Source: Thecamonas trahens ATCC 50062 | Taxonomy: Eukaryota; Protista; Apusomonadida | Reading direction: 5' to 3' | DNA: 64,000 nt | NCBI RefSeq assembly: GCF_000142905.1 | Contig: NW_013657614.1 | Span: forward strand, 84,727-148,726 | The notes under the pieces: generated by a model | Told to the model about the DNA's origin: nothing | The model's database searches: none | The model's input: only the letters and a program-made list of their open reading frames with translations | Part shown: in pieces, positions 21,295 through 46,440 of the stretch | How the letters are laid out: every line of letters starts with the position of its first letter | Position numbering within the stretch: position 1 is the first letter of the stretch | Program-made: the position numbers and the translations under genes

Positions 21295-24200
21295 ATGAAG
21301 AAGCGGTCGCGCGAGTCACCGCCTCCGTTTGCTGTGGACGACGCGTACCTAGAGGATGTGGAGATGGACCCGGAGCTTGAGCGAAAGCGGCCAAAGAAGT
21401 TTGGCGAGCGGACAGGCTCGTCTGCCTCGACTGCATCCTCGCTTACCCAGGGCTCGTTTACGGTGCCCATGGAGGTGCCCGGTGCCTCGTTGTCGGCCGC
21501 TGGCGACGGCGTCGACTTTACCTCCCAGGACACCATTCTCAAGTACAAGCGCAAGTGGCGCCGCGCTCCTACCGAGCAGCCGGACCCTTCCAATGACACC
21601 TTTGGTATGTGGGTGGGCGGATGGCGGGGATGGAGAGGGGGTGGGTGGAGGGGGGGGAGGGGGGGGAGGAAGGTGGCGATGGGGACATCGTGCTTGATTC
21701 TACGGTGGGCCTATCCACGACCTTTTTCGGGCGATTAGGGAGCACTCACACGCATTGAGCTGTTGGTGGGGGGGGGGGGCCCTNNNNNNNNNNNNNNNNN
21801 NNNNNNNNNNNNNNNNNNNNNNNNNNNNNNNNNNNNNNNNNNNNNNNNNNNNNNNNNNNNNNNNNNNNNNNNNNNNNNNNNNNGTGGGGGGGGGGGGGGG
21901 GGGGGGGAGTGGGGCGACCGATGGGGCTGTTGCTGGTGGGGCTGGACAGTGTTCCAGCAAATGGAGTGTGACTCGTACATGGGAAAGCCTGTGGCAGGCA
22001 TGCCTGGAGCGCCCGAGGGGCCGGTGCCTGTGATGCGGTTGTACGGACTGACCGAGTCCGGAGCGTCTGTGGTGGCCCATGTCCACGGCTTTCATCCGTA
22101 TCTGTTCATTCCGGCGCCGCCTGGCTTCTCACCCGACGATTGCGCCACGTTCCGTGTGGCGCTCAACTCCAAGGTCCAGTCGCAGATTCGCGGGCAGTCG
22201 CAGATTGCGCCTGTGTACGTGCTCGAGGTGGAGATTGTGCAGCGCGAGTCGATCTACGGGTACCACGGCGGGCGCAAGGCACCTTTTCTCCTCATCCGGG
22301 TCGCACACCACTCGCACATCGGCATTGCGCGGCGCGTGCTGGAGAACGGGTTCGACTACGGGGTGGGGGGTGAGCGGGCATACTCGACGTACGAGTCGAA
22401 CATCTCGTACGAGCTGCGGTTCATGATCGACACGTCGATTGTGGGATGCAACTGGATTGAGCTGCCTGCAGGCATGTACAGCGTGCGCGAGGCGTCGGAG
22501 AAGACTTCGCTGTGCCAGATCGAGGTCGACGTGGCGTGGGACCTGCTGACAAGCCATGCGCCCGAGGACGACTGGCTCAAGGTGGCGCCGTTCCGGGTCC
22601 TCTCGTTTGACATTGAGTGCATGGGGCGGAAGGGCGTGTTCCCGGAACCGGAGCACGACGCTGTAATCCAGATTGCGTCTGTCATTTCTGTCAACGGGCG
22701 CGAGAAGCCGCTCATCCGCAACGTGATGACGCTCGACACGTGCGCGCCGATTGCCGGGGCGCAGGTGATGTCGTTCCGGACGGAGCGCGAGCTGCTCGAG
22801 GCGTGGCGTGAGTTTGTGGTCGAGACGGACCCGGACATTCTCACCGGGTACAACATTGTCAACTTTGACCTCCCGTATTTGCTGGAGCGCGCGGCAGCGC
22901 TGGGGCTGGAATCGTTCCCGTGGCTGGGCCGGGTGCGTGGTGAGCGGACGACGATGAAGACGACAACGTTTTCGTCCAAGGCGTATGGGACGCGCGAGAA
23001 CAAGGACATCCGGATCCACGGGCGGGTCCAGTTTGACATGCTTGTGTGCATCCGGCGCGACTACAACTTGCGGTCTTACTCGCTCAACGCAGTCTCGTCG
23101 CACTTTCTGGGCGAGCAGAAGGAGGACGTGCACTACTCGGCGATTTCGGAGCTGCAGCGCGGGTCTGCCGAGAACCGGCACCGGCTGGCGGTGTACTGCC
23201 TCAAGGACGCGATTCTGCCGTACCGGCTCCTGCTCAAACTCCTCTCGTTGGTCAACTACATCGAGATGGCGCGTGTGACGGGCGTGCCGCTCTCGTGGCT
23301 CCTCACGCGCGGTCAGCAGATCAAGGTTGTCTCGCAGCTCTACCGCAAGGCGCTCACCATGGACTACCTCATTCCGGCGATGCGGGTGGACCCGTCTGCG
23401 GAGATGTACGAGGGCGCGACAGTGCTCGACCCGATCCGCGGCTTTTACAACGAGCCCATCACGACGCTCGACTTTTCGTCACTGTACCCGTCAATTATGA
23501 TGGCCCACAACCTGTGCTACTCGACGCTGCTCTCCAAGTCGAACGCAGCCAAGCTCTCGCCGGACGAGTACATCAAGACGCCGACCGACGCGCTGTTTGT
23601 CAAGGCTTCGGTCCGCAAGGGCGTGCTCCCGATCATTCTCCGCGAGCTGCTCGACGCGCGTAAGCGGGCCAAGAAGGCGATGAAGGCTGAGACCGACCCG
23701 TTCCGCAAGGGCGTGCTCAACGGGCGCCAGCTGGCGCTCAAGGTCTCGGCCAACTCGGTCTACGGCTTTACCGGCGCCACGGTGGGCAAGCTGCCGTGCC
23801 TCGAGATCTCCAGCTCGGTGACGGCCTTTGGCCGGCGGATGATCGACGAGACGAAGAGCCTGGTGGAGGCCAAGTACAACAAGGCCAACGGATATGCCAG
23901 TGACGCGGTGGTGGTGTACGGTGATACCGACTCGGTCATGGTCAAGTTTGGCCTGCCCGGCATTGCCGAGTCGATCGAGCTTGGCGAGGAGGCTGCGGCG
24001 TACGTGACCGAGCACTTTGTGAGCCCGATCGCGCTCGAGTTTGAGTACGTGGGCGACCCGTTTTTGCTCCTTGCGAAGAAGCGGTACGCAGCGGTGAAGC
24101 ACACGTCGGCGGACGGCGAGGGCAAGATGTACGCGCGTGGTATCGAGACGGTCCGGCGTGACTCGGCGCGGATTGTGGGTGACGTCGTCGGCGTTGTCCT

Positions 24201-24969
24201 CAAGCGCATCCTCCTCGAACGAAACGTCGATGGGGCAGTCAAGTACGTGCAGGACAAGATCGGGCGGCTGCTGCGGAACGAGATCGACATCTCGCAGCTT
24301 GTCATTTCCAAGTCGCTCTCCAAGTCGGAAGATGAGTACGACAACAAGATGCCGCACGTCGAGCTGGTGAAGCGCATGCGCAAGCGCGACGCCGGCTCGG
24401 CGCCGGTCATGGGCGACCGTGTCCCGTACGTCATCGTCAAGGGCGCGACAAACGCCAAGACGTACGAAAAGGCCGAGGACCCGCTGTACGTGCTTGAGCA
24501 TTCGATCCCCATCGACACCGAGTACTACATCGAGAACCAGCTCAAGAAGCCGCTGCTCCGCGTCATGGGGCCCATCCTCCCCTCGACCGACATCCTCTTC
24601 CACGGTGAGCACACCCGGACCATCAAGGTCTCGGCGCCGTCAACCGGTGGCCTCATGGCCTTTACCGTCCGCTCGGAGCGTTGCATCGAGTGCAAGGCAG
24701 CGCTTCCGGCGTCGACCACCCGTCCGGTCTGCGCCCACTGCGCCGCCAACACCGCCGCCATCTACGGCGCTCAGCTCGCCCGCATGCGTGAGCTCGAGCT
24801 CCACTTTTCGCGCCTCTGGTCGCAGTGCCAGTCGTGCATGGGCTCGCTCCACGATGAGGTCATCTGCTCCAACTCGGACTGTGCGCAGTACTACATGCGC
24901 GCCAAGGCCAAGAAGGATCTTGCCGCCGCCGCCAAGGTCGTTGACAAACTTAAGGCGTACGATTGGTAG
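21295..24969 (+). CDS. POLD1: DNA polymerase delta catalytic subunit (exons 21295-21604 and 21950-24969)
   Basis: LSFDIEC, GYNIVNFD, DFSSLYPS, KVSANSVYG, YGDTDS and C-terminal CysA/CysB. GTATGT...ACAG splicing gives in-frame DTF-VFQQME. Confidence 0.95.
21605..21949 (+). other. G-rich spliceosomal intron of POLD1
   Basis: GTATGT donor, GGACAG acceptor, poly-G tracts and an internal gap; splicing restores the frame. Confidence 0.85.
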
Positions 24970-25756
24970 CAGAGCAGAGGGGAGCAGGTGATTAAAGTAG
25001 GCCACGATCGATGTGTGTTGTGAGGGGGGGGGGGGNNNNNNNNNNNNNNNNNNNNNNNNNNNNNNNNNNNNNNNNNNNNNNNNNNNNNNNNNNNNNNNNN
25101 NNNNNNNNNNNNNNNNNNNNNNNNNNNNNNNNNNNNNNNNNNNNNNNNNNNNNNNNNNNNNNNNNNNNNNNNNNNNNNNNNNNNNNNNNNNNTTCAGAGT
25201 TATTTCTTCACACTCTATCACTATAATGTTTTTGTATCGGGGGGATACTCCCAATGGGGAGGGCTCGGAGACCGAAGGGGGGCGAGGGTCTCGGCAAATT
25301 TTCTAGCCCCAGTTTTTTTGTCCTTCCTCAAACACACCCCCCGCCGGGGGGGGTGGGGGAGGGGGAGGGTGGCGGAGGGGGCTGAGTGTATGGACTCACT
25401 ATGATACGGGCATGGGCATGGAAATGGGCATGGGCATTGGTATGGGTGCTGGTATGGGCGTGGATGCTGGTGCGGTGTCTGTATGTATGTATGTCTGGCT
25501 GTCTGGCTGTCTGTATGTTTGTCTGTGTGGGTATGGTCATGGTCGTGGCAATGGCCATGCTACTGGCGCTACTCCCCCGCTGCTGCTTGGTCATCGTGTT
25601 GCTGCGGCGTCTCCTGTGTCCTCCGTCATGGCCGCTACTCTTCCGCAATCGACCACCGATACCGGGTTCGACTGGTGCTGATGCATGCATGCTGTGGGCT
25701 GTCGGCTGTCGGCTGGGGATGCGCTGGGGGTGTGCGCGGGGAGGCGAGGACCGCAG

Positions 25757-27572: not shown

Positions 27573-30500
27573 GTGCGCGTGTCATCTCCGGCGCCGGAGA
27601 CTACTCTGCTGGATCACTTGCGGGACATTGAGGGCCTGACCGGGACCAAAGCGTCGTGTCGCGAGGGCGGGTGCGGAGCGTGCGCGGTGCAAGTTGTCCG
27701 TGCTGGCGGCGGGCCTGGGACCGGCTCGATCAACGCCTGCCTCTGCCCGCTGGCCTCGCTCGAGGGCGCCAGCGTGACGACGGTCGAGGGCGTGGGTTCG
27801 TCCAAGACTGGACTCCATCCGATCCAAGAGCGGTTGGCGGCCGCCAACGGCTCGCAGTGCGGCTTCTGCACGCCCGGCATGGTCATGGCTGCGTACTCGC
27901 TCGTCCAGTCGCTCGACGGGCCGCCGACGCACGCCGATATCGAGCACGCACTCGACGGCAACCTCTGCCGGTGCACCGGCTACCGCGCCATTCTCTCGGC
28001 CTTTGGCACGCTTGCCGACGGCAACGAGCCGGTTGACCGCGTCGATCAGCTCGCGCCGAGTGATGGCGACACTGCCGGCCCGCAGCACTTTGTGGCGCCT
28101 GCCGGGAGCTCGTGGTACGCACCGACACTGCTGAGCGAGCTGACGGCGGTCGTCGCCGGCCTGCCCTCGCTCGACGGCGTGCGGTTTGTGGGCGGCAACA
28201 CGTCGCGCGGCGTGTACCACGACATCGACGATGCCTCGGTGGTCTACATCTATCTTCGCCGCATCGCCGACCTGAGCGCGGTGGGCGGGAGCGACGCCGG
28301 CCTCGAGCTCGGAGGCGGCACGACGATTGCCCAGCTCATCTCGGCGCTCGACGCGGCGTCGACGCGGTCGCCAACCTCGTTCCCCGCCGCGGTCGAGCAT
28401 CTCCGCAACATCGCGTCGACCCACGTCCGCAACGCCGCAGGCTGGGCCGGAAACCTGGTTATGGTCCGCGACCGCGGCTTTGCCTCGGACGCTGCTACCG
28501 TGCTTGCCGGCCTCGGCGCCGAGCTCGAGCTGTACAACGCTGCGACCGGGGCGACGTCGAAGAGCTCGGTCCTGGACTTTGTTTCGGCTCCGCCGCCAGC
28601 CGGCGAGCTTGTCCTTGTCACCAAGCTCATCATCCCGTTTGCGTCCAAGTCCGAGTCGTTCCACTCGTACCGGACCGCCATCCGGCCGGTCAACTCGCAC
28701 GCCCTCGCCAACGCCGCCTTTTACGCCAAGACTAGCGCCGACGGCACTGTGGAGGCGGCGCGGTTGGTCTTTGGCGCCGTCGGCCCAGCACCGGCTGCAC
28801 CGGCTGCCGCGGTCGATGCGCTTGTCGGCCACCGATTTGACCAAGGCACACTCGCCGCGGTGATGGCGGCGGTTGAGGCCACGATCGAGGTCGAGCCTGA
28901 GCATGCGTACGTGACCGTCGACCAGCCCGACGGCAAGGTCGCGTACCGCAAGGCGCTCCTCGGATCGTTTGTGTACAAGTGGTTTGTCGCCAAGGCAACC
29001 GGCGTCGAGCAGCCGCCGCTCCACCGGATCCGCCCGGCGCCGTCGGGCACGCCCGACTACGAGACAGACGGTGCCCACTTGGCGTGTACAAAGCTCTCGG
29101 CGCCGCTGCAGGCAACCGGCGAGGCCGTGTATACCGGCGATCTGCCAGCAGGCAAGCGCGACCTCTACGGCGCCTTTGTCATTTCAACCCGCGGCGCGGT
29201 CATGCTCGAGGCCGTCGACGTGGAAGCCGGGCTCAAACTGCCCGGCGTCGTCGATGTCATTGTTGCCGCAGACATTCCGGGTGTCAACGACATCGGAACG
29301 GTGCCTGGCGAGGACTTGGTGCTCTACGGCGAGCAAGTTCCGTTTGTGGGCGCGCCGGTAGCGTTTGTGGTGGCTGAGACGCAGGCTGCCGCCGACGCCG
29401 CCGCGCGCAGGATCCCGGTCTCGTACGGTAGCGCGTATGAGCCGACATGCCTCACGGTCGAGGCCGCCATGGAGGCTGGTCGGTTCTTGCCGGGGACTGA
29501 CGGTGAGATCTCGCGCGGCGATGCGGCGAGCGCGCTCGAGTCTGCGCCACGCAAGCTCTCCGGCCGGCTTTACGCCGGCTCGCAGATACACTTTTACATG
29601 GAGAAGCAGACAGCAGCGGCACTGGTCGATGAGGGCGACCGGATCAAGCTCGTTGCGTCGACGCAGGGCATCGACTACTTGCGGACGCGGGTGGCCGGCG
29701 TCCTTGGTGTCTCGCCGGAACAGATCGAAGCGACGTGCCGGCGGTGCGGTGGCGCGTTTGGCGGCAAGGCCACGCGGCCGATTGGGGTCACGTCAGCGGT
29801 GGCGGTGGCCGCGACCAAGCTCGGGCGCAACGTCCGGTGCACGCTGCCCATTACGACGGACCAGGCCATGGTCGGCGGACGGTCGCGGTACGTGGCTGAC
29901 TACACGGTCGGGTTTGATGACGATGGCACCATTGTCGGGCTCACTATCGACGGCGTCGGAGACTCGGGCTGCGCCTACGACTTTATCACCTTTATGACGC
30001 ACGAGTACGTCGAAGCCCTCGATGACGTGTATTTTATTCCGCACGCCAAGTTTACGGTCAAGGCCGTGAACACGCACACGGCTGCGACAACGCCTGTCCG
30101 TGGGCCGGCGCATCCGCAGGCAACCTTTGCCATCGAGTCTGTGCTTGACATTGTGGCGGCGGAGACCGGACTCTCGCCGGACGTCGTTCGCATGCGCAAC
30201 ATGTACACCGCGCAGAACGCCATTGCCATGAACGGCATGTTCATGCGCGGCATGAACGTGGACGAGATGGTGGCCAAGGTCAAGGCTGACGCTGGGTACG
30301 ACGCGCTCGTGGCCGAGGTGGAGGCGTACAACGCACAGTCCAAGTGGCGCAAGCGCGGCATCTCGGTCCAGGGCACGAAGTACGGGGTGGCGCAGATGGC
30401 GGCATCGGGCGCGTCGGCGCTGGTCAACGTCTCGGGCACTGCGACGGTGACGGTCTACCACGCCGGCGCCGAGATCGGGCAGGGTATCAACACCAAGGTG

Positions 30501-31343
30501 GCGCAGGTGGTGGCCAAGACGCTCGGCTGCCCGCTGGCAGTGATCAAGGTCTGTGACTCGTCGACCGACGCGCTGCCCAACATGATTGTCACCGGCGGCT
30601 CGGTGGCGTCGGAGGCGTGTTGCGAGGCGGCCCGACAGGCGTGCCTCGACATCATCGAGCGGACTGCCCATATCAAGGCCGAGTTGTGGCGCAAGGCCGA
30701 GGACGGGGCCGAACCAGGCTTTGCCGACATCATTCCCGTGGCCAAGGCCCAGCACGTCTTGCTCTCGGCGTCGGCCAACTTTGTGCCACGCGGGCGACGC
30801 GACCGCGGCCCGCGGGGGCGTCCGTGGAATACCGACGGGGTGCAGTACTTTGCCTTTGGCGCCGCGCTCTCGCTCGTTGAGGTCGACATCCTCACCGGCG
30901 AGGTCACCATTCTCCGCTCCGATGTGGCCTACGACTGCGGTAACTCCCTCAACCCGCTCATCGACATCGGCCAGGCTGAAGGCGCGTTTGTCATGGGCCT
31001 CGGCTCGTACTTTACCGAGGACCGGCTGGTGACGCCGTCGGGCGGCAACGCAGCCGACGGCACCTGGGAGTACAAAGTCCCATCGGTCATGGACGCGCCG
31101 GCCCAGTTCAACGTTTCGATCCTCAAGGGCTCTGACTTTGCCTACAACGACGCCGGTGGTGTCAAGGCCGTCGGCGAGCCGCCCATCTCGCTCGCCATGA
31201 CGGCCCTCTCGGCCGCCCGCTACGCCGTCGAAGCCTCGCGCGTCGAGCGCGGTCTCCCGCGCGGCTTTGACCTCGCCATGCCGTTCACCGTCGACCGCGT
31301 CCGCACCGCTGCCGCCGTCACTAACAATGATCTCCAGCTGTGA
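27573..31343 (+). CDS. Second aldehyde oxidase/xanthine dehydrogenase-family enzyme (5' exon missing)
   Basis: TKASCREGGCGAC, GSQCGFCTPG, GNLCRCTGY, VGGNT, LQATGEAVY, HFYMEKQ, GGAFGGK, EIGQG, GQAEGAF, KAVGEPP. The ORF begins right after a TTGTAG acceptor. Confidence 0.9.
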   Translation: MRVSSPAPETTLLDHLRDIEGLTGTKASCREGGCGACAVQVVRAGGGPGTGSINACLCPLASLEGASVTTVEGVGSSKTGLHPIQERLAAANGSQCGFCTPGMVMAAYSLVQSLDGPPTHADIEHALDGNLCRCTGYRAILSAFGTLADGNEPVDRVDQLAPSDGDTAGPQHFVAPAGSSWYAPTLLSELTAVVAGLPSLDGVRFVGGNTSRGVYHDIDDASVVYIYLRRIADLSAVGGSDAGLELGGGTTIAQLISALDAASTRSPTSFPAAVEHLRNIASTHVRNAAGWAGNLVMVRDRGFASDAATVLAGLGAELELYNAATGATSKSSVLDFVSAPPPAGELVLVTKLIIPFASKSESFHSYRTAIRPVNSHALANAAFYAKTSADGTVEAARLVFGAVGPAPAAPAAAVDALVGHRFDQGTLAAVMAAVEATIEVEPEHAYVTVDQPDGKVAYRKALLGSFVYKWFVAKATGVEQPPLHRIRPAPSGTPDYETDGAHLACTKLSAPLQATGEAVYTGDLPAGKRDLYGAFVISTRGAVMLEAVDVEAGLKLPGVVDVIVAADIPGVNDIGTVPGEDLVLYGEQVPFVGAPVAFVVAETQAAADAAARRIPVSYGSAYEPTCLTVEAAMEAGRFLPGTDGEISRGDAASALESAPRKLSGRLYAGSQIHFYMEKQTAAALVDEGDRIKLVASTQGIDYLRTRVAGVLGVSPEQIEATCRRCGGAFGGKATRPIGVTSAVAVAATKLGRNVRCTLPITTDQAMVGGRSRYVADYTVGFDDDGTIVGLTIDGVGDSGCAYDFITFMTHEYVEALDDVYFIPHAKFTVKAVNTHTAATTPVRGPAHPQATFAIESVLDIVAAETGLSPDVVRMRNMYTAQNAIAMNGMFMRGMNVDEMVAKVKADAGYDALVAEVEAYNAQSKWRKRGISVQGTKYGVAQMAASGASALVNVSGTATVTVYHAGAEIGQGINTKVAQVVAKTLGCPLAVIKVCDSSTDALPNMIVTGGSVASEACCEAARQACLDIIERTAHIKAELWRKAEDGAEPGFADIIPVAKAQHVLLSASANFVPRGRRDRGPRGRPWNTDGVQYFAFGAALSLVEVDILTGEVTILRSDVAYDCGNSLNPLIDIGQAEGAFVMGLGSYFTEDRLVTPSGGNAADGTWEYKVPSVMDAPAQFNVSILKGSDFAYNDAGGVKAVGEPPISLAMTALSAARYAVEASRVERGLPRGFDLAMPFTVDRVRTAAAVTNNDLQL

Positions 31344-32462: not shown

Positions 32463-35400
32463 TTAGTTGGCGTAGATGTTCTCGAGATCGTCTGGATCTG
32501 AATCGTCCTCCATGCCGATGACAGATATCTCGCGCGGCGGGGGCGACGTGGTCGGCGATGACGCCAGTGAGCGAGGCGATAGCGGCGGCGACGGCGGATC
32601 GGATCTTGGCGGCGTCGAGTTGAAGCCGTAATGTGCCGACATCGAGCCCGGAGAGCCCGAGGCTGACAGCGACTGCAACGGCCTGGGTGGCGTCGACGCC
32701 GACTCGCCCGAGGCAAAGCCGAAGCCAGGGAGCGCAGGTGTCGTGGTTGGTGTGCCATCGGAAGCGGGCGCAACACCAGTGTTGAAGCCGGCAAGCTTGG
32801 TGGAGGAGGAGCCAAAACCAGAGGTCTGCGACGCGGGTGCGGCAGCCGCATCGCCCTCGGTCTTCTTGCCGAACCCGAACGAAGACTTGGGCGCGGCCGC
32901 ATCGCCCTCGGTCTTCTTGCCGAACCCGAACGAAGACTTGGGCGCGGCCGCATCGCCCTCGGTCTTCTTGCCGAACCCGAACGAAGACTTGGGTGCGGCC
33001 GCATCGCCCTCGGTCTTCTTGCCGAACCCGAACGAAGACTTGGGTGCAGCTGCATCACCCTCGGCCTTCTTGCCGAACCCGAACGAAGTCTTGGGCGCGG
33101 CCGCATCACCCTCGGCCTTCTTGCCGAACCCGAACGAAGTCTTGGGTGCAGCTGCATTGCCCTCGGTCTTCTTGCCAAAGCCCGTGCCAAAGCTAGCTGC
33201 AGGCTTGGTGGAAGAGCCAAAACCAGAGGTCTGTGGCGCGGGTGAGGCGGCCGCATCGCCCTCGGCCTTCTTGCCAAAGCCCGTGCCAAAGCTAGCTGCA
33301 GGCTTGGTGGAGGAGCCAAAACCAGAGGTCTGTGGCGCGGGTGAGGCGGCCGCATCGCCCTCGGTCTTCTTGCCAAAGCCCGTACCAAAGCTAGCTGTAG
33401 GCTTGGCGGAGGAGCCAAAACCAGAGGTCTGCGACGCGGGTGCGGCAGCCGCATCGCCCTCGCTCTTCTTGCCGAACCCGAACGAAGTCTTGGGCGCGGC
33501 CGCATCACCCTCGGCCTTCTTGCCGAGCCCGAACGAAGTCTTGGGCGTAGCCGCATCGCCCTCGGTCTTCTTGCCAAAGCCCGTACCAAAGCTAGCTGCA
33601 GGCTTGGTGGAGGAGCCAAAACCAGAGGTCTGTGGCGCGGGTGAGGCGGCCGCATCGCCCTCGGTCTTCTTGCCAAAGCCCGTACCAAAGCTAGCTGAAG
33701 GCTTGGCGGAGGAGCCAAAACCAGAGGTCTGCGACGCGGGTGCGGCAGCCGCATCGCCCTCGCTCTTCTTGCCGAACCCGAACGAAGTCTTGGGCGCGGC
33801 CGCATCACCCTCGGCCTTCTTGCCGAGCCCGAACGAAGTCTTGGGCGTAGCCGCATCGCCCTCGGTCTTCTTGCCAAAGCCCGTGCCAAAGCTAGCTGAA
33901 GGCTTGGTGGAGGAGCCAAAACCAGAGGTCTGTGGCGCGGGTGAGGCGGCCGCATCACCCTCGGCCTTCTTGCCGAGCCCGAACGAAGTCTTGGGCGCGG
34001 CCGCATCGCCCTCGGTCTTCTTGCCAAAGCCCGTACCAAAGCTAGCTGTAGGCTTGGCGGAGGAGCCAAAACCAGAGGTCTGCGACGCGGGTGCGGCAGC
34101 CGCATCGCCCTCGGTCTTCTTGCCGAACCCGAACGAAGTCTTGGGCGCGGCCGCATCGCCCTCGGCCTTCTTGCCAAAGCCCGTGCCAAAGCTAGCTGCA
34201 GGCTTGGTGGAAGAGCCAAAACCAGAGGTCTGTGGCGCGGGTGAGGCGGCCGCATCACCCTCGGCCTTCTTGCCGAGCCCGAACGAAGTCTTGGGCGCGG
34301 CCGCATCGCCCTCGGTCTTCTTGCCAAAGCCCGTACCAAAGCTAGCTGTAGGCTTGGCGGAGGAGCCAAAACCAGAGGTCTGCGACGCGGGTGCAGCAGC
34401 CGCATCGCCCTCGCTCTTCTTGCCGAACCCGAACGAAGTCTTGGGCGCGGCCGCATCGCCCTCGGTCTTCTTGCCGAACCCGAACGAAGACTTGGGTGCA
34501 GCTGCATCACCCTCGGTCTTCTTGCCAAAGCCCGTGCCAAAGCTAGCTGCAGGCTTGGTGGAGGAGCCAAAACCAGAGGTCTGTGGCGCGGGTGAGGCGG
34601 CCGCATCGCCCTCGGTCTTCTTGCCGAACCCGAACGAAGTCTTGGGTGCAGCTGCATTGCCCTCGGTCTTCTTGCCAAAGCCCGTGCCAAAGCTAGCTGC
34701 AGGCTTGGTGGAGGAGCCAAAACCAGAGGTCTGTGGCGCGGGTGAGGCGGCCGCATCGCCCTCGGTCTTCTTGCCGAACCCGAACGAAGTCTTGGGTGCA
34801 GCTGCATTGCCCTCGGTCTTCTTGCCAAAGCCCGTGCCAAAGCTAGCTGCAGGCTTGGTGGAAGAGCCAAAACCAGAGGTCTGCGACGCGGGCATGTCCT
34901 CCGCATCGTTGGACCCGCCATCACTGGAGGTTGAATCCCCCTCGACTTCACCCGACTCAACACCGTCCTTGCCGTCATCATCAGACTCGGGGGCAGAGAC
35001 TGATGGAGAACCAGTTTCAGCAGGCGCCTCGAAGGCGGTCGCGACTGGCTGGGCCGAGCGCAAGGTCGAAAGATGCGTGCACAGCACCTCGTCGTTGTCC
35101 GAATCCGATGCATCATGTACGGCGCCGTCCACTGATGACGCGGCCGAATCCGCCACCACCGGCGCAGCAGGCGCAGCGCCACCTTCTTTGCTGGCCTTCT
35201 TGCCCCAGGCCGGCTTACCCAGCGTTGAACCACTTCCAAACACAACACCACCAGACCGGTTGCTAAAACCGCCAAAGGTCCCAGACACACCGGAAGCAAT
35301 GGTCTTGTTTCCGTCACCATCTAGCGGGGGCACGAGTGAATGCAGCTCGCGCTTCTTGCCAAAGCCCGACGTCGTCGAAAGCTTGACGGGCCCCTTCATC

Positions 35401-38400
35401 ACTCCATCTGGCTTGGCACCAGCGGACTTGCCGCTGCGCTGAAAAGAGAACGACGACGACTTGAACGCAAAGCCCGACCCAGGTTTCTCGGCTGCAGGCG
35501 GCGGCGCAGCCGAGACAACACCAAACCGGCCGAGCGGTTTCTCGTTTGCCTTCGAGGCGCTCCCGAACATGACTGTACCATCGTCACTGTCATCGTCGCC
35601 GCTAGAAACTGAGCCAATAGACCCATCCTCCACTTGGCCATCTACCCCAGCCGCCAGCGTCCGAGTCGGTGCCACTGCTTCAGGTGTTGCAGCCGAGGAT
35701 GTGGATTTGTCGGTATCCAACTTGTCAGCATCTGAGCCAACAGTCGCCTCGGCCGCGGGTGCCGTCTCTGCAGGCTTACCCCACGACGCAAATGACTTCT
35801 TCTTCTTGGCTGGGTTCGGTGTCGTGCATGTCGTGCACGCCGCGATGCCTTCGGCGTTGTCCATCGTGCACGCCTGGCACTTCCACATTCCATCCGCTGC
35901 CTTGGACTCGGCCTCGGCCTTCTTGCCGGCCGCGGCCTTGGCAATCGAAAACGCAGGTGGGCCGCTCGGCTTGGGCGCCGTCGCTGCCTCGGACTTGTTG
36001 TCGGCAGGCGCCGCAGCAGGCTTACCCCACGACGCAAATGACTTCTTCTTCTTGGATGGGTTTGGTGTCGTGCATGTCGTGCACGCCGCGATGCCTTCGG
36101 CGTTGTCCATCGTGCACGCCTGGCACTTCCACATTCCACCCGCTGCCTTGGACTCGGCCTCGGCCTTCTTGCCGGCCGCGGCCTTGGCAATCGAAAACGC
36201 AGGTGGGCCGCTCGGCTTGGGCGCCGTCGCTGCCTCGGACTTGTTGTCGGCAGGCGCCGCAGCAGGCTTACCCCACGACGCAATGACTTCTTCTTCTTGG
36301 ATGGGTTTGGTGTCGTGCATGTCGTGCACGCCGCGATGCCTTCGGCGTTGTCCATCGTGCACGCCTGACACTTCCACATTCCATCCGCTGCCTTGGACTC
36401 GGCCTCGGCCTTCTTGCCGGCCGCGGCCTTGGCAATCGAAAACGCAGGCGGGCCGCCCGGCTTGGGCGCCGAGTCCCCCGTCTTCTTGAAGCCCGAGAGT
36501 GAGAACGGCTTGGCACCACTCGTCTTGGAGCCAGCGTTCCCCGTTTTCTTGAAGCCGGAGAGCGAGAACGACTTGGCACTGCTCGGCGTGGCACCAGAGT
36601 CGCCCGTCTTCTTAAAACCCGCGAGAGAGAACGGCTTCGGCGAGCTTGACACCGGTGCTCCGAAGGACAAGCTCGATGTCGATGCCGGCTTGGACTCCTC
36701 CGCGACATGCTCACCATCAGCGGCGACATCAGCCAGAGAAAGGCTGTCCACAGCAACCACACAGTCATCGTCGTCACTGCCCTCTGGCGTAGCACACGAG
36801 TAGACGCTGTCGAGCTCTTCCTCGACAACTTCGGCGATGGCATTGAGCGACTCAGAAAATTGCTCCTCGTTCACAAGACAATCGGACGCCACGCCGCTAT
36901 CGGAACCGTCATCATCCGAGTCGGTTTGCTCCTCTCCTGGAAGCGGCTCATCACCAGCCTCGTGCGCTGCGTCAACAGTTGACGACTTGCCGAACGAGGA
37001 TGCGTTCCAGCCCGACGATCCACTCGCAGCCACAATGGGAAGCTTCGGCACCTTGCCTCCCAGGGTGAACTTACTTCCGCTGGGGCTCTTCTTCTGCAGC
37101 GGACCAGATGCAGCCGACTTGGGCTTGCTGCCAAATTGGAACGTGGGACTCCCAGCGGTCTTGTCGCCGCCGAGCTTGGCCTTGAAACCGCCAGCCTTGA
37201 AGCCGCCAGCCTTGAAGCTGCCAGCCGTGAAGCCACCGACAGCAGGAGCGGGGGCAGGCGATGCTGCGCCATCGGCAGCCTTGTCGCCGCCGATCTTGGC
37301 CTTGAAACCGCCAGCCTTGAAGCCACCGACAGCAGGAGCGGGGGCAGGCGATGCTGCGCCATCGGCAGCCTTGTCGCCACCGAGCTTGGCCTTGAAACCG
37401 CCAGCCTTGAAGCCGCCAGCCTTGAAGCCTCCAGCCTTGAAGCCACCGACAGCAGGAGCGGGGGCAGGCGATGCTGCGCCATCGGCAGCCTTGTCGCCGC
37501 CGAGCTTGGCCTTGAAACCGCCAGCCTTGAAGCCACCTGCAGCAGGAGCGGGCGCAGGCGATGCTGCGCCATCGGCAGCCTTGTCGCCACCGAGCTTGGC
37601 CTTGAAACCGCCAGCCTTGAAGCCTCCAGCCTTGAAGCCACCTGCAGCAGGAGCGGGGGCAGGCGATGCTGCGCCATCAGCAGCCTTGTCGCCGCCGAGC
37701 TTGGCCTTGAAACCGCCAGCCTTGAAGCCGCCAGCCTTGAAGCCTCCAGCCTTGAAGCCACCTGCAACAGGAGCGGGGACAGGCGATGCTGCGCCATCGG
37801 CAGCCTTGTCGCCACCGAGCTTGGCCTTGAAACCGCCAGCCTTGTCGCTACCTGCAGCAGGAGCGGGGGCAGGCGATGCTGCGCCATCAGCAGCCTTGTC
37901 GCCACCGAGCTTGGCCTTGAAACCGCCAGCCTTGAAGCCTCCAGCCTTGAAGCCACCTGCAGCAGGAGCGGGGGCAGGCGATGCTGCGCCATCAGCAGCC
38001 TTGTCGCCGCCGAGCTTGGCCTTGAAACCGCCAGCCTTGAAACCGCCAGCCTTGTCGCCACCTGCAGCAGGAGCGGGGGCAGGCGATGCTGCGCCATCAG
38101 CAGCCTTGTCGCCACCGAGTTTGGCCTTGAAACCGCCAGCCTTGAAGCCGCCAGCCTTGAACCCTCCCACAGCAGGAGCGGGGGCAGGCGATGCTGCGCC
38201 ATCAGCAGCCTTGTCGCCACCGAGCTTGGCCTTGAAACCGCCAGCCTTGAAGCCACCGACAGCAGGAGCGGGGGCAGGCGATGCTGCGCCATCGGCAGCC
38301 TTGTCGCCACCGAGCTTGGCCTTGAAACCGCCAGCCTTGAAGCCGCCAGCCTTGAAGCCTCCCACAGCAGGAGCGGGGGCAGGCGATGCTGCGCCATCAG

Positions 38401-40831
38401 CAGCCTTGTCGCCACCGAGCTTGGCCTTGAAACCGCCAGCCTTGAAGCCACCGACAGCAGGAGCGGGGGCAGGCGATGCTGCGCCATCGGCAGCCTTGTC
38501 GCCACCGAGCTTGGCCTTGAAACCACCAGCCTTGAAGCCGCCAGCCTTGAAGCCACCCGCAGCAGGAGCGGGCGCAGGCGATGCTGCGCCATCGGCAGCC
38601 TTGTCGCCACCGAGCTTGGCCTTGAAACCACCAGCCTTGAAGCCACCCACAGCAGGAGCGGGCGCAGGCGATGCTGCGCCATCGGCAGCCTTGTCGCCGT
38701 CGAGCTTGGCCTTGAACCCACCAGCAACAGGGGCGACTGCGGCAGCAGCAGACACGCCCTGTCCATCTACACTCTCGCCAAACGCTGCCGCGTTCTGCTG
38801 GAGCGCATGCAGCTCGCGCATCCGCTTTTCCATTCGCAGCTGGTACGACGTCGCGGATGCACCGGCGGCCTTTGGCACAGACACAGGCTGCACAGCTTTG
38901 CTCGGTGTGCCCTTGGGTGGACTCGCCGCCGCCGCCACTGCCCGCGATGTGCCCTGGTTCCGCGGACGAAGCGGCGAGAATGCCTGCCGTGCGTCCGTGA
39001 ACAGCGCTCTCGGCGCCTTGGACGCACTCATGGGCACAATGGCATCGGGCGTTGCAGGCGCGCCGCCCAGCTGCCCGAGCTCTTCCTCGACAACCGCTCG
39101 CCCGACATGATCTGCTGGCATCTTGCCTAGCGCAACCCGGAGCCAGTGCCGCGCCCGCCCGCGCAGCATGTCCGCCACCTCCCCGGTCTCGTCCTCGACG
39201 TCGTCGAGGCACTCGAGCGCAAACATGCCCATGAACTTCTCCACCCCACCGTCCGACGTCGGCGCCCCGGCCCGCGCCTCTTCGGCCGCATGCGCAATCT
39301 GCGACGAGCCGAGAATCGGGTGCGCCGCCAGCGCCGCCTCATCGTAATGCTGCTCTAGCGATGCATGCCGCAGATGCAGAATCGTCACCCATGTCGCCAG
39401 CTGCTTGTGCGTCACAGGAATGTGCGGGACCACCGTCGATGCAAGCACTTGCCGGTGAGAGAACACAAGCATCAGCACAAAGGTCTCGATGTCAGCAACG
39501 CACCCAAAGGCTCCAGCTCCGCCTGCCAGCGGCAGTCGGTCAAACATGTCCTGGAACCATCCGAGACAGATGTACATGTCGTTGACAACGTACCACGCCA
39601 CTCGCGTCACCAGCGCACGCAAGTCGGCCGGCCCCATCGCCACCACCCGCCAGTCTAGATCTGCAAGGAGGTCTGCGACACGCTCGCTCGCCTCGTCCTC
39701 ATCCGCCATCTCAAACTCTTCCGTCGCCAACGCCACCGCAAGCTTTCCGATGCTCCACCGCTCGTCGCCACCGGAAACGTCGTCGTGGACCCGAAGCAGA
39801 TCCAACGCACACCGCCCGGCCGTTGACCGTCGCTCGAAATGCGCCACAGCCATCTCCAGCGCGACCACTTTGGTCGGCTCTACCACGTCCAACTCGCATC
39901 CAACCGCCACGCCACGCCAGAAGCACTGCAGCGCCTTGCGGAGCGCACCCACCCGCTCCGCATCGTTGACCCGCCCCGCCTCCTCGGCCTCGATCGCCTC
40001 CACCGCAAGCAAATCTGCGTAGAGCAGGTGTACCTTGCCAAACACCACATAAGCCTGCAGCCGGTGTTCGTCCTGGAACTCGGCGCCCTCGCCTGCCTCT
40101 ACCGCCGCCCGATACGCCCGGCATGCCGCTTGGCACTCGTCCAGCGACGCGTCCTCATCAGCAAGCGCCTCGCTGGCCAGCCGCAGAAGGATCCACAGAT
40201 GCACATCCACAAGCTTGGCGCCTCCGGCAGCAGCAAGCCGCACTTCGCACGCAGCATCGTCTCCAGTAGCCGCAGCCGCAGCCGCAGCCATGGCACGCGC
40301 CGACCAGCCGGCGACCCATCGCCACCAGGTCAGGCTGTGAGCAAACTTGGTCCGCGCGGGGATGACTCTCGCCCAGACCTCGCCTGTGGCATCGGCCGAC
40401 TCGAGGTAGGCCAGCAGCTTGACCTCGAGCTCGGCGTCATGCGGGTTGTCGTGGACGGCGGTGCGGAGGATGGAGACGACCTGGTCTGCCGCCGGCGGGC
40501 CCTGGGCGAGCAACAGGTCGAGTCGAGCGAGTTGGAGCGTCTTCCTGGGCACGCCAAGCTCACAAGCCTTGTCCATCCACGCCTCGGCCTCTTTGACAAA
40601 CAGCATGGACTTTTCAGCATTAGCCGGGCGGACCTGGCCGGTGGTCACGGCCACCAGAGCAAGGGCGGCTTGTTGGGCCATCTCAGCCTTGCCCGACACC
40701 AGGGCTCTTTGGAGGAACTGCTTGGCGTTAAAGTACTCGCCACGCTCCGCGTACGCATGCCCGGCTTGGAGACATGCTGCTGCGTCGTACGGAGACACAG
40801 ACAGTTGCCGCAGAATCGTAGAAAGCTCCAT
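32463..40831 (-). CDS. Large Nup358/RanBP2-like FG nucleoporin (~2,790 aa; 1-nt frameshift at ~36282)
   Basis: TPR/helical N-domain, GGFKA repeats, FSLSGFKK repeats, three RanBP2-type zinc fingers (WKCQACTMDN-x6-CTTC) and SFGFGKK/SGFG repeats. The two ORFs join if the A missing from one 246-bp repeat copy is restored. Confidence 0.75.
32800..34890 (-). repeat. Coding FG-repeat array (54-bp and ~96-bp modules)
   Basis: Mosaic of KKTEGDAAAPKTSFGFG and QTSGFGSSTKPAASFGTGFG units. Confidence 0.95.
35770..36460 (-). repeat. Three ~246-bp tandem units, each encoding a RanBP2 zinc finger
   Basis: cttaccccacgacgca anchors at 35775, 36021 and 36267. Confidence 0.9.
37157..38730 (-). repeat. Coding array of GDKAADGAASPAPAPA-(GGFKA)n-KL units
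   Basis: Many near-identical units with a variable number of 15-bp GGFKA subunits. Confidence 0.95.
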
Positions 40832-42468: not shown

Positions 42469-45400
42469 TCACTTGCTCTCCGTCCAGCCGACTTGCAACC
42501 CTGCACCCGGCTCGTGCCAAGTCTTCTTGACAAAGACCCGGTAGGCAGGGATGCCGATGGCGACGGCCACCACTACGATCGAGTACGCGCCGAGTGCCAT
42601 AAAGACGGTGACCACAAACGAGGCTTGCTCATCGGCGACAGCAAGGAGATCGGCAACCAGCGCCGTAACGTACGCCATCAACAACACCGCATGGGCAGTC
42701 ATGTCCATCCGCGTCACCAGCGGCGAGACGTACGGCGACATCTCATAGGCCGCAAAGATCGACGCCAGGAACGTGGTGACAAGCACCACATGCCGGTAGA
42801 TCTCGGTCGCAGAGCCAAAAGCCACCACTACAGCGTAGAGGAACCGCCGCAGGACAAAAATGACGGCAAAGTACCGCGCCCGTGCCTTGAAGGAGTCGAA
42901 CCAGAATGGGAACGAGGTCGAGATCCACGCCACGGGCTCGGCCGCCAGTTCGCCGTAGATCACCACCGCAACCATGACCAGCATCGGCAGGACTACGTAC
43001 ACCACCATCGGAACCACCTTTTCCGCCACCGTCAGCGTCGAGCACTCGAGGTGCGGGTAGTTCTTAAAGTACGAGATCTTCGACACCGGGTCCTCCTCGC
43101 AGTTGAACACGTCGAGGATGTAGGTGGCGAGCGGGAGGAAGAAAAAGTTGGCGACAAGCCCGATAGCCCACACCACATGACCCATGTACACCTCGCCGGT
43201 CCTCATCAGCCTCTGCTGCAGCCCATCGTTGGACTCGGCCTGCTCCGACTCGCACGACGAGTCGCCTTCGCTCGACCCGGACGCTCCCGTCGCCCACGTG
43301 TAGTCGGAGTCGTCGTCGTCACCTGCGTCCGACCCGCTGCTTGACGACGCAGACGGAAACTTGATCACAAACTTGACGGTGAAAACCAAAAGGAGGACCG
43401 TCATGATGATCGGCGGAAGACAGACCATGGCCCGGAATCGGGCCTCGAAGCTCTCAAACTCGGAGATGCACTCGAGCCCGATGCCCTCGGACGACGGTTG
43501 TGAGAACTGGAAGATCGCCAAGATAGGCAGGATTGACGAAGGCAGCAAGAGATCGGCAACAACAATGGTAAGCGTCTGGAAGAACGAAATCACAATCTGG
43601 AAGAGCTGCTGGACGTAGCGCAGGAAGGCCTTGCGCCGGAGCTTGGCCGGCGCGCTCTCGCCGTCGCTACAGTCGCTACCCGATGCGGACGACTGCGACA
43701 CCGTCGAAGTATCGGAGCTTGCGCTCAACTGCTCCTCGGTCTGGCGCGAAGAGCACCGCCCGCCCTGGAAGATCCGCTCCCACTTGCGGATCTCCTCGGG
43801 CACGACGTCGCGTAGGATCGAGGCGCCGCCGACTGCTGCGAGGACGATGACGACGAAAAAGATGAAAACCGACGGCCACACCCCAGTCGACTGCGAGCAC
43901 TTGACGCACTCGCCGTCCCGCAGAAAGAAATCGTCCTCGCAGTCGGCGCAGAGACGACCGCGATGGCCCTCCTTGCACTGGAACGAGGTCACAGTAGCGC
44001 CGCTGGCGTCGGTCGTCTGGACAACCTCACACGGGTTTGACGCACTCGTGGCCTTCATGGCTCCAAACTCGCATGCCACAAAGGCATTAGCCACCGTCGT
44101 GCTCAGCGTCGCGCTCGCGTTGAACTGAGTCAGCGACCGCATCGCCCGTGTCTGCGCTGGCGTCGGTGCCGGTGTCGGCTTGGTCACCGCTGCAAACGGG
44201 TTGTCAATCTCGAACCTGGCCAGCGAGGGAAAGTAGCCAGGATTGGGGATCATGACCGGAACCGCCGTCGACGGATAGCCGAGGCACCTGGCGTTGGCAA
44301 GACAGGCGGCACACGAGTCGAGCCCGCCGCGGGTGGTGTTGTAGAACTCGTCACGGCAGCGGCATGCCAGATACCGATGATACGAGGGGTCGACCTTGAG
44401 CTCGACGCCCGAGCTCCCGATCCACTGTGGACACGCGCCACCGGAGAGAGTAACCACGTCGGCGGCGCTAAAGTCGGGCGAGACAAACGTGGGCATGAAC
44501 GGGCCCGGCCCGCGCTTGGCCTCCATCCCCGGGTTGTTCCGCAAATCGAGCAGCTTGAGCGACGGCAGCTCGCCAACGAGCTGTGGCACGTCGCCGACAA
44601 GCGAGTTGTTGGAGAGGTCGAGCGTGACGAGCGAGCCCAGTTCAAACACGTCAGTTGCGGTGATGAGGAGCGGGCCACCGATGTTGTTGTCGCTCAGATC
44701 GACGCTCTTCACGCGGACAAACGCACCACTAATGCGCGAAAAGGCAAAGCCCGGGCCGAGCGCGGCACCGTTGTTGCTCAGATCGAGCTCGGTCAACTCT
44801 CCCGGCATGCGGTCGAGGACTGTTCCGAGGTCATCGAGGTTGTTCGATGAAATGTCAAGGACCTGGAGCGTAGTGGCCTTGTTCTTGAACCCAGGCTCGA
44901 CCGCGCTGTAGCTGTTGCCAGCGAGACGAAGAGTAAAAATTGCGGTGGCTCCAGTAAGCGGCAGCGTGAGCGTGCCGCTAAACGAGTTCCGCGACAGGTC
45001 GAGTGTGACAAGCTCGACAAAGGTATCCAGCGACGGTATGGCGGTGAGCGAGTTGTCGGCGGCGTACAGCTCCTTGATCTCAGACTTGATGACCGCCGGC
45101 GGCGGCGATGCCATGCCTGTAAAGGCGTTGCCGGAAATCACTAACTTGAGAAGCGTCGACGAGTAGAGGACCGACGCCGGGACAGTGCCCTCGAGCGCAT
45201 TGTTGGAGAGCTCGAGTAAGGAGATGTTGGTCATGGGCAAGAGAAAGTTAGGCGGAATGGTCCCGGTCAGGTTGGTTCCCGAAAGACTTAGCGTCTGGAG
45301 GCCGATGTACGCCGGATCTAAGGTCAGCATGCCCCCCAGCGGGTTGTCGTTGAGAATGAGCCGCAGGAGCTTGCCGGTCGATGGAAGTGGGATACTTTGC

Positions 45401-46440
45401 ACCGGGCCGTCAAAGGCATTGTACGAGAGGTCAAGGAAGACGAGTTCGTCGAGGACGTCCAGCGTTCCAGGTTCGATGCGGCCGCGCATGTAGTTGCGCT
45501 GCAGCTCGAGGCCGATAAGCGAGCGTCGCCAAGCGGCCGGAAACGAAGGAATCGAGCCGCCGATGCGACCATCCGCGAGATCAAGGTACGACGGCGCAGT
45601 GAGCGACGTGAGCGCCGCCGGAAGTTGCGCCGCCACCAGGTCGAGCGAGCTGAGCATGAGCATGTCGACGTAGCCATCGGCCGTGCAAACGACGCCGTAC
45701 CAGTTGTTGCGGCACGGATCCGAGGACGCGGTGTTGACTTGCCATGGGATGCCGTTCCGCGACGCCGCCGGCTGCCGCCACCCACTGCCACCAGTCCCGC
45801 GGTAGAGCGCAACAAGGGCATCACGCTCGGACGCTACCATTGGCGCCTGCCCGACCGTCACCGTCACTACGCCAGGGGCAGACTTGTAGGGATCAAGTTC
45901 CGACGTGAGCTGATCCGGGTTGCGCATAATATACGCAGCAAAGTCGCTCGGGAGCGAGTTGACAAAGGCGCTGGCGCCGGCGATCGACTTGCGATGCTTC
46001 GACGGGGCGTAGATGGCGGGAAAGCCGAGGATCTTTGGATTGACAAGCATGCCTTTGCCGCCCCACTTGGCCACGAGCGCAGCCAGTCGACCAGGATCAC
46101 ATGTGACCGAGACGATGCCGCCCGGCACAATGGCAATCTTGCCGTTAAAGTTGGACGGCGCATCGGGCATGAGACCACAAGGATCCTCAGTCAGCACAAA
46201 GCCCTCGATGTCGACCGCAGTGCTCGGCGGCGTCGAGAACTGAAAAGCAGTCACTTGCGACGCCACATGCCTCACACCAAGCGTTTTGTCCGGCGCCGAG
46301 CCGTCGGTGGTTGAGAGCTTCACAGTAATGCCGCGCGCCAGGGGGTCCTGTCCGGCCACAAGAGATGCAAGAGCAGCCAAGAGGGCAACCGTAGCCACTA
46401 CTAGCGAGAACCGTCTCTTCGCAAGTAGCATGGAATGCAT
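42469..46440 (-). CDS. Receptor-like protein: signal peptide, PA-like domain, LRR array, Cys-rich region, multi-pass TM domain
   Basis: DPC..GKIAIV..G..C; ERDALVALY..W...DPC..WYGV.C cap; many LxLxxNxLxGxxP repeats; C.EGH.G.LC..C; about 8-9 hydrophobic segments. Confidence 0.8.
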   Translation of the reverse strand: MHSMLLAKRRFSLVVATVALLAALASLVAGQDPLARGITVKLSTTDGSAPDKTLGVRHVASQVTAFQFSTPPSTAVDIEGFVLTEDPCGLMPDAPSNFNGKIAIVPGGIVSVTCDPGRLAALVAKWGGKGMLVNPKILGFPAIYAPSKHRKSIAGASAFVNSLPSDFAAYIMRNPDQLTSELDPYKSAPGVVTVTVGQAPMVASERDALVALYRGTGGSGWRQPAASRNGIPWQVNTASSDPCRNNWYGVVCTADGYVDMLMLSSLDLVAAQLPAALTSLTAPSYLDLADGRIGGSIPSFPAAWRRSLIGLELQRNYMRGRIEPGTLDVLDELVFLDLSYNAFDGPVQSIPLPSTGKLLRLILNDNPLGGMLTLDPAYIGLQTLSLSGTNLTGTIPPNFLLPMTNISLLELSNNALEGTVPASVLYSSTLLKLVISGNAFTGMASPPPAVIKSEIKELYAADNSLTAIPSLDTFVELVTLDLSRNSFSGTLTLPLTGATAIFTLRLAGNSYSAVEPGFKNKATTLQVLDISSNNLDDLGTVLDRMPGELTELDLSNNGAALGPGFAFSRISGAFVRVKSVDLSDNNIGGPLLITATDVFELGSLVTLDLSNNSLVGDVPQLVGELPSLKLLDLRNNPGMEAKRGPGPFMPTFVSPDFSAADVVTLSGGACPQWIGSSGVELKVDPSYHRYLACRCRDEFYNTTRGGLDSCAACLANARCLGYPSTAVPVMIPNPGYFPSLARFEIDNPFAAVTKPTPAPTPAQTRAMRSLTQFNASATLSTTVANAFVACEFGAMKATSASNPCEVVQTTDASGATVTSFQCKEGHRGRLCADCEDDFFLRDGECVKCSQSTGVWPSVFIFFVVIVLAAVGGASILRDVVPEEIRKWERIFQGGRCSSRQTEEQLSASSDTSTVSQSSASGSDCSDGESAPAKLRRKAFLRYVQQLFQIVISFFQTLTIVVADLLLPSSILPILAIFQFSQPSSEGIGLECISEFESFEARFRAMVCLPPIIMTVLLLVFTVKFVIKFPSASSSSGSDAGDDDDSDYTWATGASGSSEGDSSCESEQAESNDGLQQRLMRTGEVYMGHVVWAIGLVANFFFLPLATYILDVFNCEEDPVSKISYFKNYPHLECSTLTVAEKVVPMVVYVVLPMLVMVAVVIYGELAAEPVAWISTSFPFWFDSFKARARYFAVIFVLRRFLYAVVVAFGSATEIYRHVVLVTTFLASIFAAYEMSPYVSPLVTRMDMTAHAVLLMAYVTALVADLLAVADEQASFVVTVFMALGAYSIVVVAVAIGIPAYRVFVKKTWHEPGAGLQVGWTESK

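What the first reader, a model, noticed from the sequence alone, without database searches (positions are those of the whole stretch)
32463..40831. Nup358/RanBP2-like nucleoporin outside animals, lacking Ran-binding, E3 and cyclophilin domains
N-terminal segments AEAWMDKACEL, NPHDAELEVKLL, FAHSLTW, CVADIETFVLMLVFSH and THKQLATW line up in order with human RanBP2 N-terminal-domain segments as I recall them (AKYWLERAAKL, RPDDVHVNIRLV, LRSSLEW, CILDLEVFLLGVVYTSH, TERQKSWW; from memory, unverified). A short coiled coil (YQLRMEKRMRELHALQQ) follows, where Nup358 has its oligomerisation element, then FG repeats and three RanBP2 zinc fingers. Nup358 is generally described as metazoan-specific, so this could be an ancestral minimal form.
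Basis: partly seen in the sequence, partly recalled or inferred. Interest (0 to 1): 0.78.

Follow-up and report, generated by a model that had tools for sequence, protein, structure and literature searches.

The report
Probable stripped-down Nup358 outside animals
A non-animal eukaryote found in sea and estuary samples has a gene, broken by a likely assembly error, for a giant repeat-rich protein that is probably a relative of the animal nuclear-pore filament Nup358, with a predicted pore anchor, FG repeats and zinc fingers but no RanBP1-type, SUMO-ligase or cyclophilin domains; a non-animal Nup358 is already reported in the amoeba Dictyostelium.

Summary
Order: 590-residue helical domain starting with TPRs, short amphipathic helix, 39 GGFK repeats, three RanBP2-type zinc fingers, 700-residue FG array. 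No RanBD, IR or cyclophilin domain. A DNA polymerase delta tree puts the host outside animals (AU p 0.0008). Nup358 homology is likely (0.68) but not proven. No sequence search linked the N-domain to Nup358. A low-confidence model ranked Xenopus Nup358 first in Foldseek (E 3.7e-4), with human and Dictyostelium Nup358 in the top 45, but unrelated TPR solenoids are interleaved. Both ends align in register at Z-scores tied with generic TPRs. The premise 'metazoan-specific' is out of date: Dictyostelium Nup358 is modelled in its pore (PDB 9HCJ), Monosiga has a 2010 candidate, and this scan noted a chytrid homologue earlier on other DNA (e1-7220403). What is added is one more deep lineage with an RanBD-free layout and two SUMO-interaction-like motifs.

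The parts
32463..40831 (-). Whole gene, about 2,787 residues when read through the break with X; no intron evident, no N inside
   Evidence: convergent abhydrolase gene ends 9 bp from the stop, OGFOD2-like gene ends 323 bp upstream
39062..40831 (-). All-helical N-terminal domain, aa 1-590 (26 predicted helices); candidate Nup358 NTD; acidic (54 K+R, 87 D+E)
   Evidence: AlphaFold2 single sequence, pLDDT 49.5; Foldseek; VIA; charge
40382..40831 (-). TPR part, aa 1-150
   Evidence: phmmer to consensus TPRs at aa 8-45; VIA Z 9-10.8 to many TPR domains
38795..38845 (-). Short amphipathic segment, aa 663-679, about 70 residues after the helical domain; sits where Nup358 has its oligomerisation element
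   Evidence: sequence; position compared
37181..38722 (-). GGFK repeat array, aa 704-1217 (39 GGFK, no FG), 15-bp units within 90-210-bp units
36749..36760 (-). SIM-like hydrophobic core after an acidic run, aa 1358-1361
   Evidence: 2 such motifs against 0.23 expected, P 0.015, looked for after seeing them
36302..36376 (-). RanBP2-type C4 zinc finger 1
36282..36283 (.). 1-base frameshift: two A where the two sister repeat copies have three
36057..36131 (-). RanBP2-type zinc finger 2
35811..35885 (-). RanBP2-type zinc finger 3
32796..34895 (-). FG array, 700 residues, 67 FG (SGFG, FGTGFG, FGFG types), 51-, 99- and 150-bp units
32517..32528 (-). C-terminal SIM-like core followed by an acidic run, about aa 2767-2770

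Best explanation
The gene, read through a likely assembly frameshift, encodes a giant protein with a predicted helical N-domain, three zinc fingers and FG repeats that is probably a divergent Nup358/RanBP2-family cytoplasmic-filament nucleoporin lacking the RanBD, SUMO-E3 and cyclophilin modules. Shown: domain order, absence of those modules, non-animal host. Inferred from human Nup358: the TPR/HEAT solenoid clamps the Y-complex stalks of the cytoplasmic ring; the helix at 663-679 bundles several copies; the roughly 2,100 disordered residues project into the cytoplasm; the FG and probably the GGFK repeats dock transport receptors; the fingers bind Ran or ubiquitin. The protein would be a docking platform and scaffold. 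It has no built-in RanBP1 activity, so that function would come from free RanBP1.
For: Layout: TPR-start solenoid, then about 70 residues, short helix, repeats, RanBP2 fingers in the middle, FG. This follows human NTD 1-752, about 50-residue linker, OE 802-832, and Dictyostelium chain 9hcj_00 (3,566 aa, NTD 1-780, six fingers at 1647-2323). From my own knowledge, Nup358 is the only described FG-nucleoporin that begins with a TPR solenoid. Foldseek against 350,542 chains: rank 1 is 7vop_X (E 3.7e-4), and 11 of the 47 rows shown are Nup358 chains of human, Xenopus and Dictyostelium (4 named in their titles, 2 named, 5 assigned by entry and length). Register at both ends: aa 1-354 on Xenopus 6-308 (Z 10.3, rmsd 13.0, 280 aligned), and aa 517-591 on human 647/650-752, the very end of the NTD (Z 7.7-7.9, rmsd 3.3-3.7, 72-74 aligned). 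Host outside Metazoa and outside the sampled Holozoa.
Against: No sequence-level link. PDB phmmer, HMMER over 1.84 billion representatives (1 hit, a TPR), a word-index search, Pfam and the ESM Atlas (none of the listed clusters is RanBP2) all missed it. Both models are low-confidence (pLDDT 49.5 and 50.9). Ctr9, Ski3 and OGT chains are interleaved at similar E-values with equal or higher TM-scores (0.20-0.22 for Ctr9 against 0.13-0.21), and the VIA Z-scores for Nup358 are below or tied with LGN, Acl4 and IFIT. The N-domain is shorter (590 against 752) and acidic (pI 5.0), whereas human NTD has a strongly positive concave face. The fingers carry T-M where ubiquitin-binding NZFs carry T-F/Y and human Nup358 fingers mostly L-V. 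Their nearest upstream Phe is 22 residues away, not within the roughly 10-residue extension used for Ran binding.
Confidence: 0.68

Rival explanations
1. A lineage-specific FG-nucleoporin that reached a Nup358-like layout independently, by joining an unrelated TPR solenoid to FG repeats and RanBP2 fingers. It works like Nup358 but is not its orthologue.
For: No sequence link to Nup358; generic TPR proteins tie in fold searches. Peripheral nucleoporins are often lineage-specific, for example trypanosome NUP140 and NUP149. The scan's notes describe finger-plus-FG modules fused to RanGAP and RCC1 in other protists (unchecked), so the module moves.
Against: Three mutually distant Nup358 orthologues all fall in Foldseek's top 45; register at both ends; helix placed like the OE.
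Confidence: 0.2
2. Not a pore protein: a cytoplasmic TPR adaptor with ubiquitin-binding NZF-like fingers and low-complexity repeats that only resemble FG domains.
For: The best single-finger hit is the HOIP NZF (24 bits, E 3.9e-4), tied with Nup153 fingers; T-M resembles the TF motif; the first array is GGFK rather than FG; spacers are rich in K and A.
Against: A 700-residue array of SGFG, FGTGFG and FGFG motifs with charged spacers, plus RanBP2 fingers, is the usual nucleoporin signature; Nup358 is the top Foldseek hit.
Confidence: 0.07
3. The frameshift is real in this strain. The gene is then truncated (N-domain, GGFK, one finger, junk basic tail, 1,729 aa), or the locus is a decaying allele.
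For: One contig of run X5 (organism A) carries the two-A, 245-bp unit without a gap.
Against: X5 may be the window's own source, so it is not independent. Contigs of X1 and X4, and another X5 contig, have three A, though they cannot be assigned to this copy. The peptide repeat continues perfectly in the new frame. A second homopolymer frameshift interrupts a xanthine dehydrogenase gene in the same scaffold, which also has N gaps, so the assembly probably has indel errors.
Confidence: 0.05

Closest known systems
Human and Xenopus Nup358/RanBP2 (PDB 7MNL, 7MNN, 7MNO, 7VOP, 7R5K; bioRxiv 10.1101/2021.10.26.465790)
   Same: TPR-start helical N-domain, short helix after a linker, central RanBP2 fingers, FG repeats, giant size; top Foldseek hit and in-register ends.
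   Different: No RanBD, IR/E3 or cyclophilin; 3 fingers against 8; finger residues differ; N-domain shorter and acidic; no detectable sequence similarity (11-13% in structural alignments).
Dictyostelium discoideum Nup358 (PDB 9HCJ chain 00; bioRxiv 10.1101/2024.01.17.575985)
   Same: Non-animal; N-domain (1-780) followed by a very long region with central RanBP2 fingers (six, 1647-2323); rank 45 in Foldseek.
   Different: 3,566 aa; already placed in a cryo-ET map (two copies per spoke). Whether it lacks RanBDs was not tested here; its PDB name mentions only the zinc finger.
Nup153
   Same: RanBP2 fingers plus an FG array; its fingers are among the best single-finger hits.
   Different: Nuclear-side nucleoporin without an N-terminal TPR solenoid (own knowledge).
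Trypanosome NUP149 and NUP140 (PMC11825100)
   Same: Cytoplasmic-face, largely disordered nucleoporins with zinc fingers or FG repeats in a non-animal.
   Different: No structured N-domain; their fingers are reported as unlike those of Nup358.

Membership tests
Nup358/RanBP2 | N-terminal TPR repeats (about the first 145 residues) | tested here: met
   not specific to Nup358
Nup358/RanBP2 | S-shaped NTD (N-solenoid, wedge, C-solenoid) homologous to residues 145-752 | tested here: inconclusive
   Foldseek rank 1 and in-register ends, but low-confidence models and ties with generic TPR proteins
Nup358/RanBP2 | Profile-level sequence homology of the NTD | not testable with these tools
   No tool returned a Nup358 protein for a profile; single-sequence searches found no link
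Nup358/RanBP2 | Oligomerisation element about 50 residues after the NTD | tested here: inconclusive
   Amphipathic 17-residue segment about 70 residues after the domain; shorter than human 802-832
Nup358/RanBP2 | Central RanBP2-type C4 zinc fingers | tested here: met
   three copies
Nup358/RanBP2 | Fingers bind Ran (hydrophobic pair plus Phe/Leu extension) | tested here: inconclusive
   T-M pair, Phe 22 residues upstream; Dictyostelium fingers also lack L-V
Nup358/RanBP2 | FG repeats | tested here: met
Animal-type Nup358 (full architecture) | RanBDs, IR1-M-IR2 SUMO E3, C-terminal cyclophilin | tested here: not met
   no Pfam hit; no ordered segment of domain size after aa 690; no room for further 3' exons. 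Not filed as animal-type.
Nup358/RanBP2 | Location on the cytoplasmic ring | not testable with these tools
   needs microscopy or cryo-ET
NZF ubiquitin-binding fingers | Thr-Phe/Tyr motif plus a hydrophobic residue in the second CxxC | tested here: not met
   T-M, and Thr in the second CxxC

The most novel reading that the evidence does not exclude
Nup358 began in the common ancestor of animals, fungi and amoebae, or earlier, as a pure scaffold: pore anchor, oligomerisation helix, zinc fingers and FG repeats. RanBDs, the SUMO E3 and the cyclophilin were added on the animal line. This gene keeps the old layout, and its two acidic SIM-like motifs may be a simple SUMO-docking device that preceded the animal SUMO-RanGAP1 tether.
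Probability: 0.35. Interest if true: 0.65.

Novelty: new variant of a known kind. Interest (0 to 1): 0.42.

Why it matters
Papers from 2021 to 2025 still call Nup358 metazoan- or vertebrate-specific. A homologue in a lineage outside Holozoa, added to Dictyostelium and the scan's unchecked chytrid note, would mean that yeasts lost it rather than animals inventing it. It would also give a natural RanBD-free version for asking what the anchor, fingers and FG array do alone. The surprise is moderate, because a non-animal Nup358 is already in print and in the PDB.

Tried and rejected
No relatives of the N-domain: longer-protein word search (0 of 7,983 candidates); HMMER over representatives (1 TPR hit); metagenome contigs (0 of 97 stretches); viral contigs (0 of 6); scan look-alikes. 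A synteny attempt with the upstream OGFOD2-like gene found 0 of 201. A search with one finger, meant to pull long RanBP2 proteins for a profile, gave 2 candidates and no hit, so no Nup358 profile could be built. Exact look-up of 6 window proteins found none. PDB phmmer with four sub-regions (aa 60-200, 200-430, 395-575, 425-500) gave only chance hits; aa 1-1515 gave TPRs and single fingers. The model of aa 330-592 had no Foldseek match at E 0.001 and no Nup358 among the rows shown. Nup358 was also not listed in either wide VIA search; with low-confidence models that excludes nothing. ESM Atlas gave TTC21-type and unnamed helical clusters with a low recognition value. A four-copy prediction of aa 652-690 returned no answer (score 0.01), which is neither for nor against oligomerisation. 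A GTAAG donor-like motif lies just after the break but recurs in all three copies as ordinary codons; a frame-restoring intron was not pursued. A 683-base joint in one X1 contig has only 21 letters on one side and was ignored. The first tree run did not finish. No genome is held for this window, so RanBP1, RanGAP and other Nup358 candidates in this organism could not be sought. Literature searches: Nup358 with Thecamonas, 0 papers; RanBP2 with Capsaspora and nucleoporin, 0; none of the 20 papers listed mentions Nup358.
Full report
What is there. The minus strand from 40831 to 32463 holds two long overlapping frames, ORF1 (to 35642) and ORF2 (from 36611). They are one coding sequence offset by a missing A at 36282-36283, inside the first of three 246-bp repeats; the two sister copies keep three A. 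Read through with X, the protein has 2,787 residues: a globular region of about 590 residues, a linker, a short amphipathic segment (663-679), 39 GGFK repeats (704-1217), an acidic island, three C4 fingers, and a 700-residue array with 67 FG. A convergent abhydrolase gene ends 9 bp from the stop and an OGFOD2-like gene ends 323 bp upstream, so no further exons are likely. Pfam finds only sub-threshold finger hits and chance hits, and no Ran_BP1, IR1-M or cyclophilin domain. Near-identical DNA occurs in estuary and marine metagenomes and in runs of one coded organism. One X1 contig skips a 150-bp unit, so repeat numbers may vary or be mis-assembled.

The frameshift. Contigs of X1 and X4, and one X5 contig, carry three A but are collapsed repeat units or carry copy-3 letters, so they cannot be assigned to this copy; another X5 contig carries the two-A unit. 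X5 may be the window's source. The scaffold has N gaps and a second homopolymer frameshift in a xanthine dehydrogenase gene. An assembly or sequencing indel is the likeliest reading; a strain mutation is not excluded.

The host. The DNA polymerase delta gene at 21961-24969 has two unnamed close relatives (76% and 65%) and is at most 58% identical to any named protein among the 120 hits listed. In a FastTree tree of 48 rows (the window protein and 47 of those 120 hits) the three form a clade (support 100) outside Metazoa (31 rows, 100) and outside a 40-row clade that adds rows I read as choanoflagellate, Pigoraptor and Ichthyophonus (labels interpreted from recall). In a 19-row IQ-TREE run, holding the trio with the 8 animals is rejected (AU p 0.00084). 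This is one gene, and no named fungus was among the hits, so the exact lineage is open. An apusomonad-like flagellate would fit from recall, but no call tested it.

Is the N-domain Nup358's? By sequence there is no link, although the PDB file holds full-length human, Xenopus and Dictyostelium Nup358. With no relatives, AlphaFold2 ran on single sequences and gave low confidence: all-helical, with a fairly confident TPR start. Foldseek ranked a Xenopus Nup358 chain first (E 3.7e-4; 5 matches at E 0.001, 2 of them Nup358), and 11 of the 47 rows shown are Nup358 chains from three species, including Dictyostelium at rank 45. Ctr9, Ski3, OGT and spliceosomal solenoids are interleaved, and TM-scores are all under 0.25. 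VIA placed aa 1-354 on Xenopus 6-308 (Z 10.3, rank 7) and aa 517-591 on human 647/650-752 (Z 7.7-7.9, ranks 10 and 12). Both ends are in register, but the scores lie in the range the tool calls common for helical repeats. The fold evidence is therefore suggestive only. It gains weight from the architecture: from my own knowledge no other described FG-nucleoporin starts with a TPR solenoid, and the helix follows the domain as the oligomerisation element does in human (NTD 1-752, OE 802-832). Against it: the domain is shorter and acidic, while the human one has a basic concave face that binds RNA and NUP88.

Fingers and motifs. One finger as query retrieves the full-length Nup358 chains first (Dictyostelium E 3.1e-13, human 2.1e-11), but these are sums over 6-8 copies; the best single fingers are HOIP NZF and Nup153. 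The T-M pair fits neither the ubiquitin-binding T-F/Y motif nor the L-V of most human fingers, and the Phe extension used for Ran is 22 residues away. The ligand is open. Two hydrophobic cores beside acidic runs (aa 1358, aa 2767) fit the SIM pattern as I recall it: 2 observed, 0.23 expected, P 0.015, post hoc.

Mechanism (confidence 0.68). The N-domain would anchor on the cytoplasmic Y-complex ring, the helix would bundle copies, and the long tail would dock transport receptors through FG and perhaps GGFK repeats, with the fingers catching Ran or ubiquitin. Export-complex disassembly would rely on free RanBP1 and RanGAP. Only the anatomy is shown; each functional step is inferred from human Nup358. 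Rivals: a convergent lineage-specific FG-nucleoporin (0.20), a non-pore adaptor (0.07), a truly truncated gene (0.05).

What is known. bioRxiv 10.1101/2021.10.26.465790 (passages and sections 7-8), PMC8421043 (passages) and PMC11825100 (passages) call Nup358 metazoan- or vertebrate-specific. But bioRxiv 10.1101/2024.01.17.575985 (passages) models Dictyostelium Nup358 aa 1-780 and fits two copies per cytoplasmic-ring spoke; its supplementary tables, which I did not see, may list the protein's domains. PMC2951903 Table 2, as rendered, marks Nup358 in its first 13 columns, the 13th being Monosiga brevicollis (passages). Also seen as passages: PMC13242641, PMC11372445, 10.1101/2025.07.21.665908 and PMC10034585 (not relevant). 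Searches (listings only) showed no survey of RanBD-free Nup358 in protists; most subscription papers are not covered. The scan's note e1-7220403 reports a chytrid NTD homologue without RanBD or E3 (unchecked here).

Verdict. This is a real giant FG-and-zinc-finger protein in a non-animal, probably a divergent Nup358 with an RanBD-free layout. It is not filed as animal-type Nup358, and family membership awaits a profile test. New variant of a known kind; interest 0.42.

Noticed in passing
window 16696-21128 (+): Xanthine dehydrogenase/aldehyde oxidase gene with an N-terminal WW domain, interrupted by a 1-base homopolymer frameshift near 18627-18632; a second paralogue (35-38% identical) lies at 27573-31343, with an apparent intron acceptor near 27570 beside an N gap.
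   Followed up: partly
window 9994-12279 (-): 761-aa protein with a prokaryotic-type glutathione synthetase ATP-grasp match (E 1.9e-25) and further ATP-grasp matches at two places; possibly a tandem ATP-grasp ligase or a transferred gene.
   Followed up: no
window 42469-46440 (-): 1,323-aa LRR protein with a signal-like start and a multi-pass hydrophobic C-terminal region, resembling an LRR receptor.
   Followed up: no
window 52243-56806: Two ABCG-type half-transporter genes arranged head to head.
   Followed up: no
window about 210 onward, about 25035-25190, and up to 27453: Runs of N (scaffold gaps), at least one beside a G-run; they explain the low-GC bins of the composition profile.
   Followed up: partly
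window 36749-36760 and 32517-32528 (-): Two SIM-like motifs in the disordered tail of the gene studied.
   Followed up: partly
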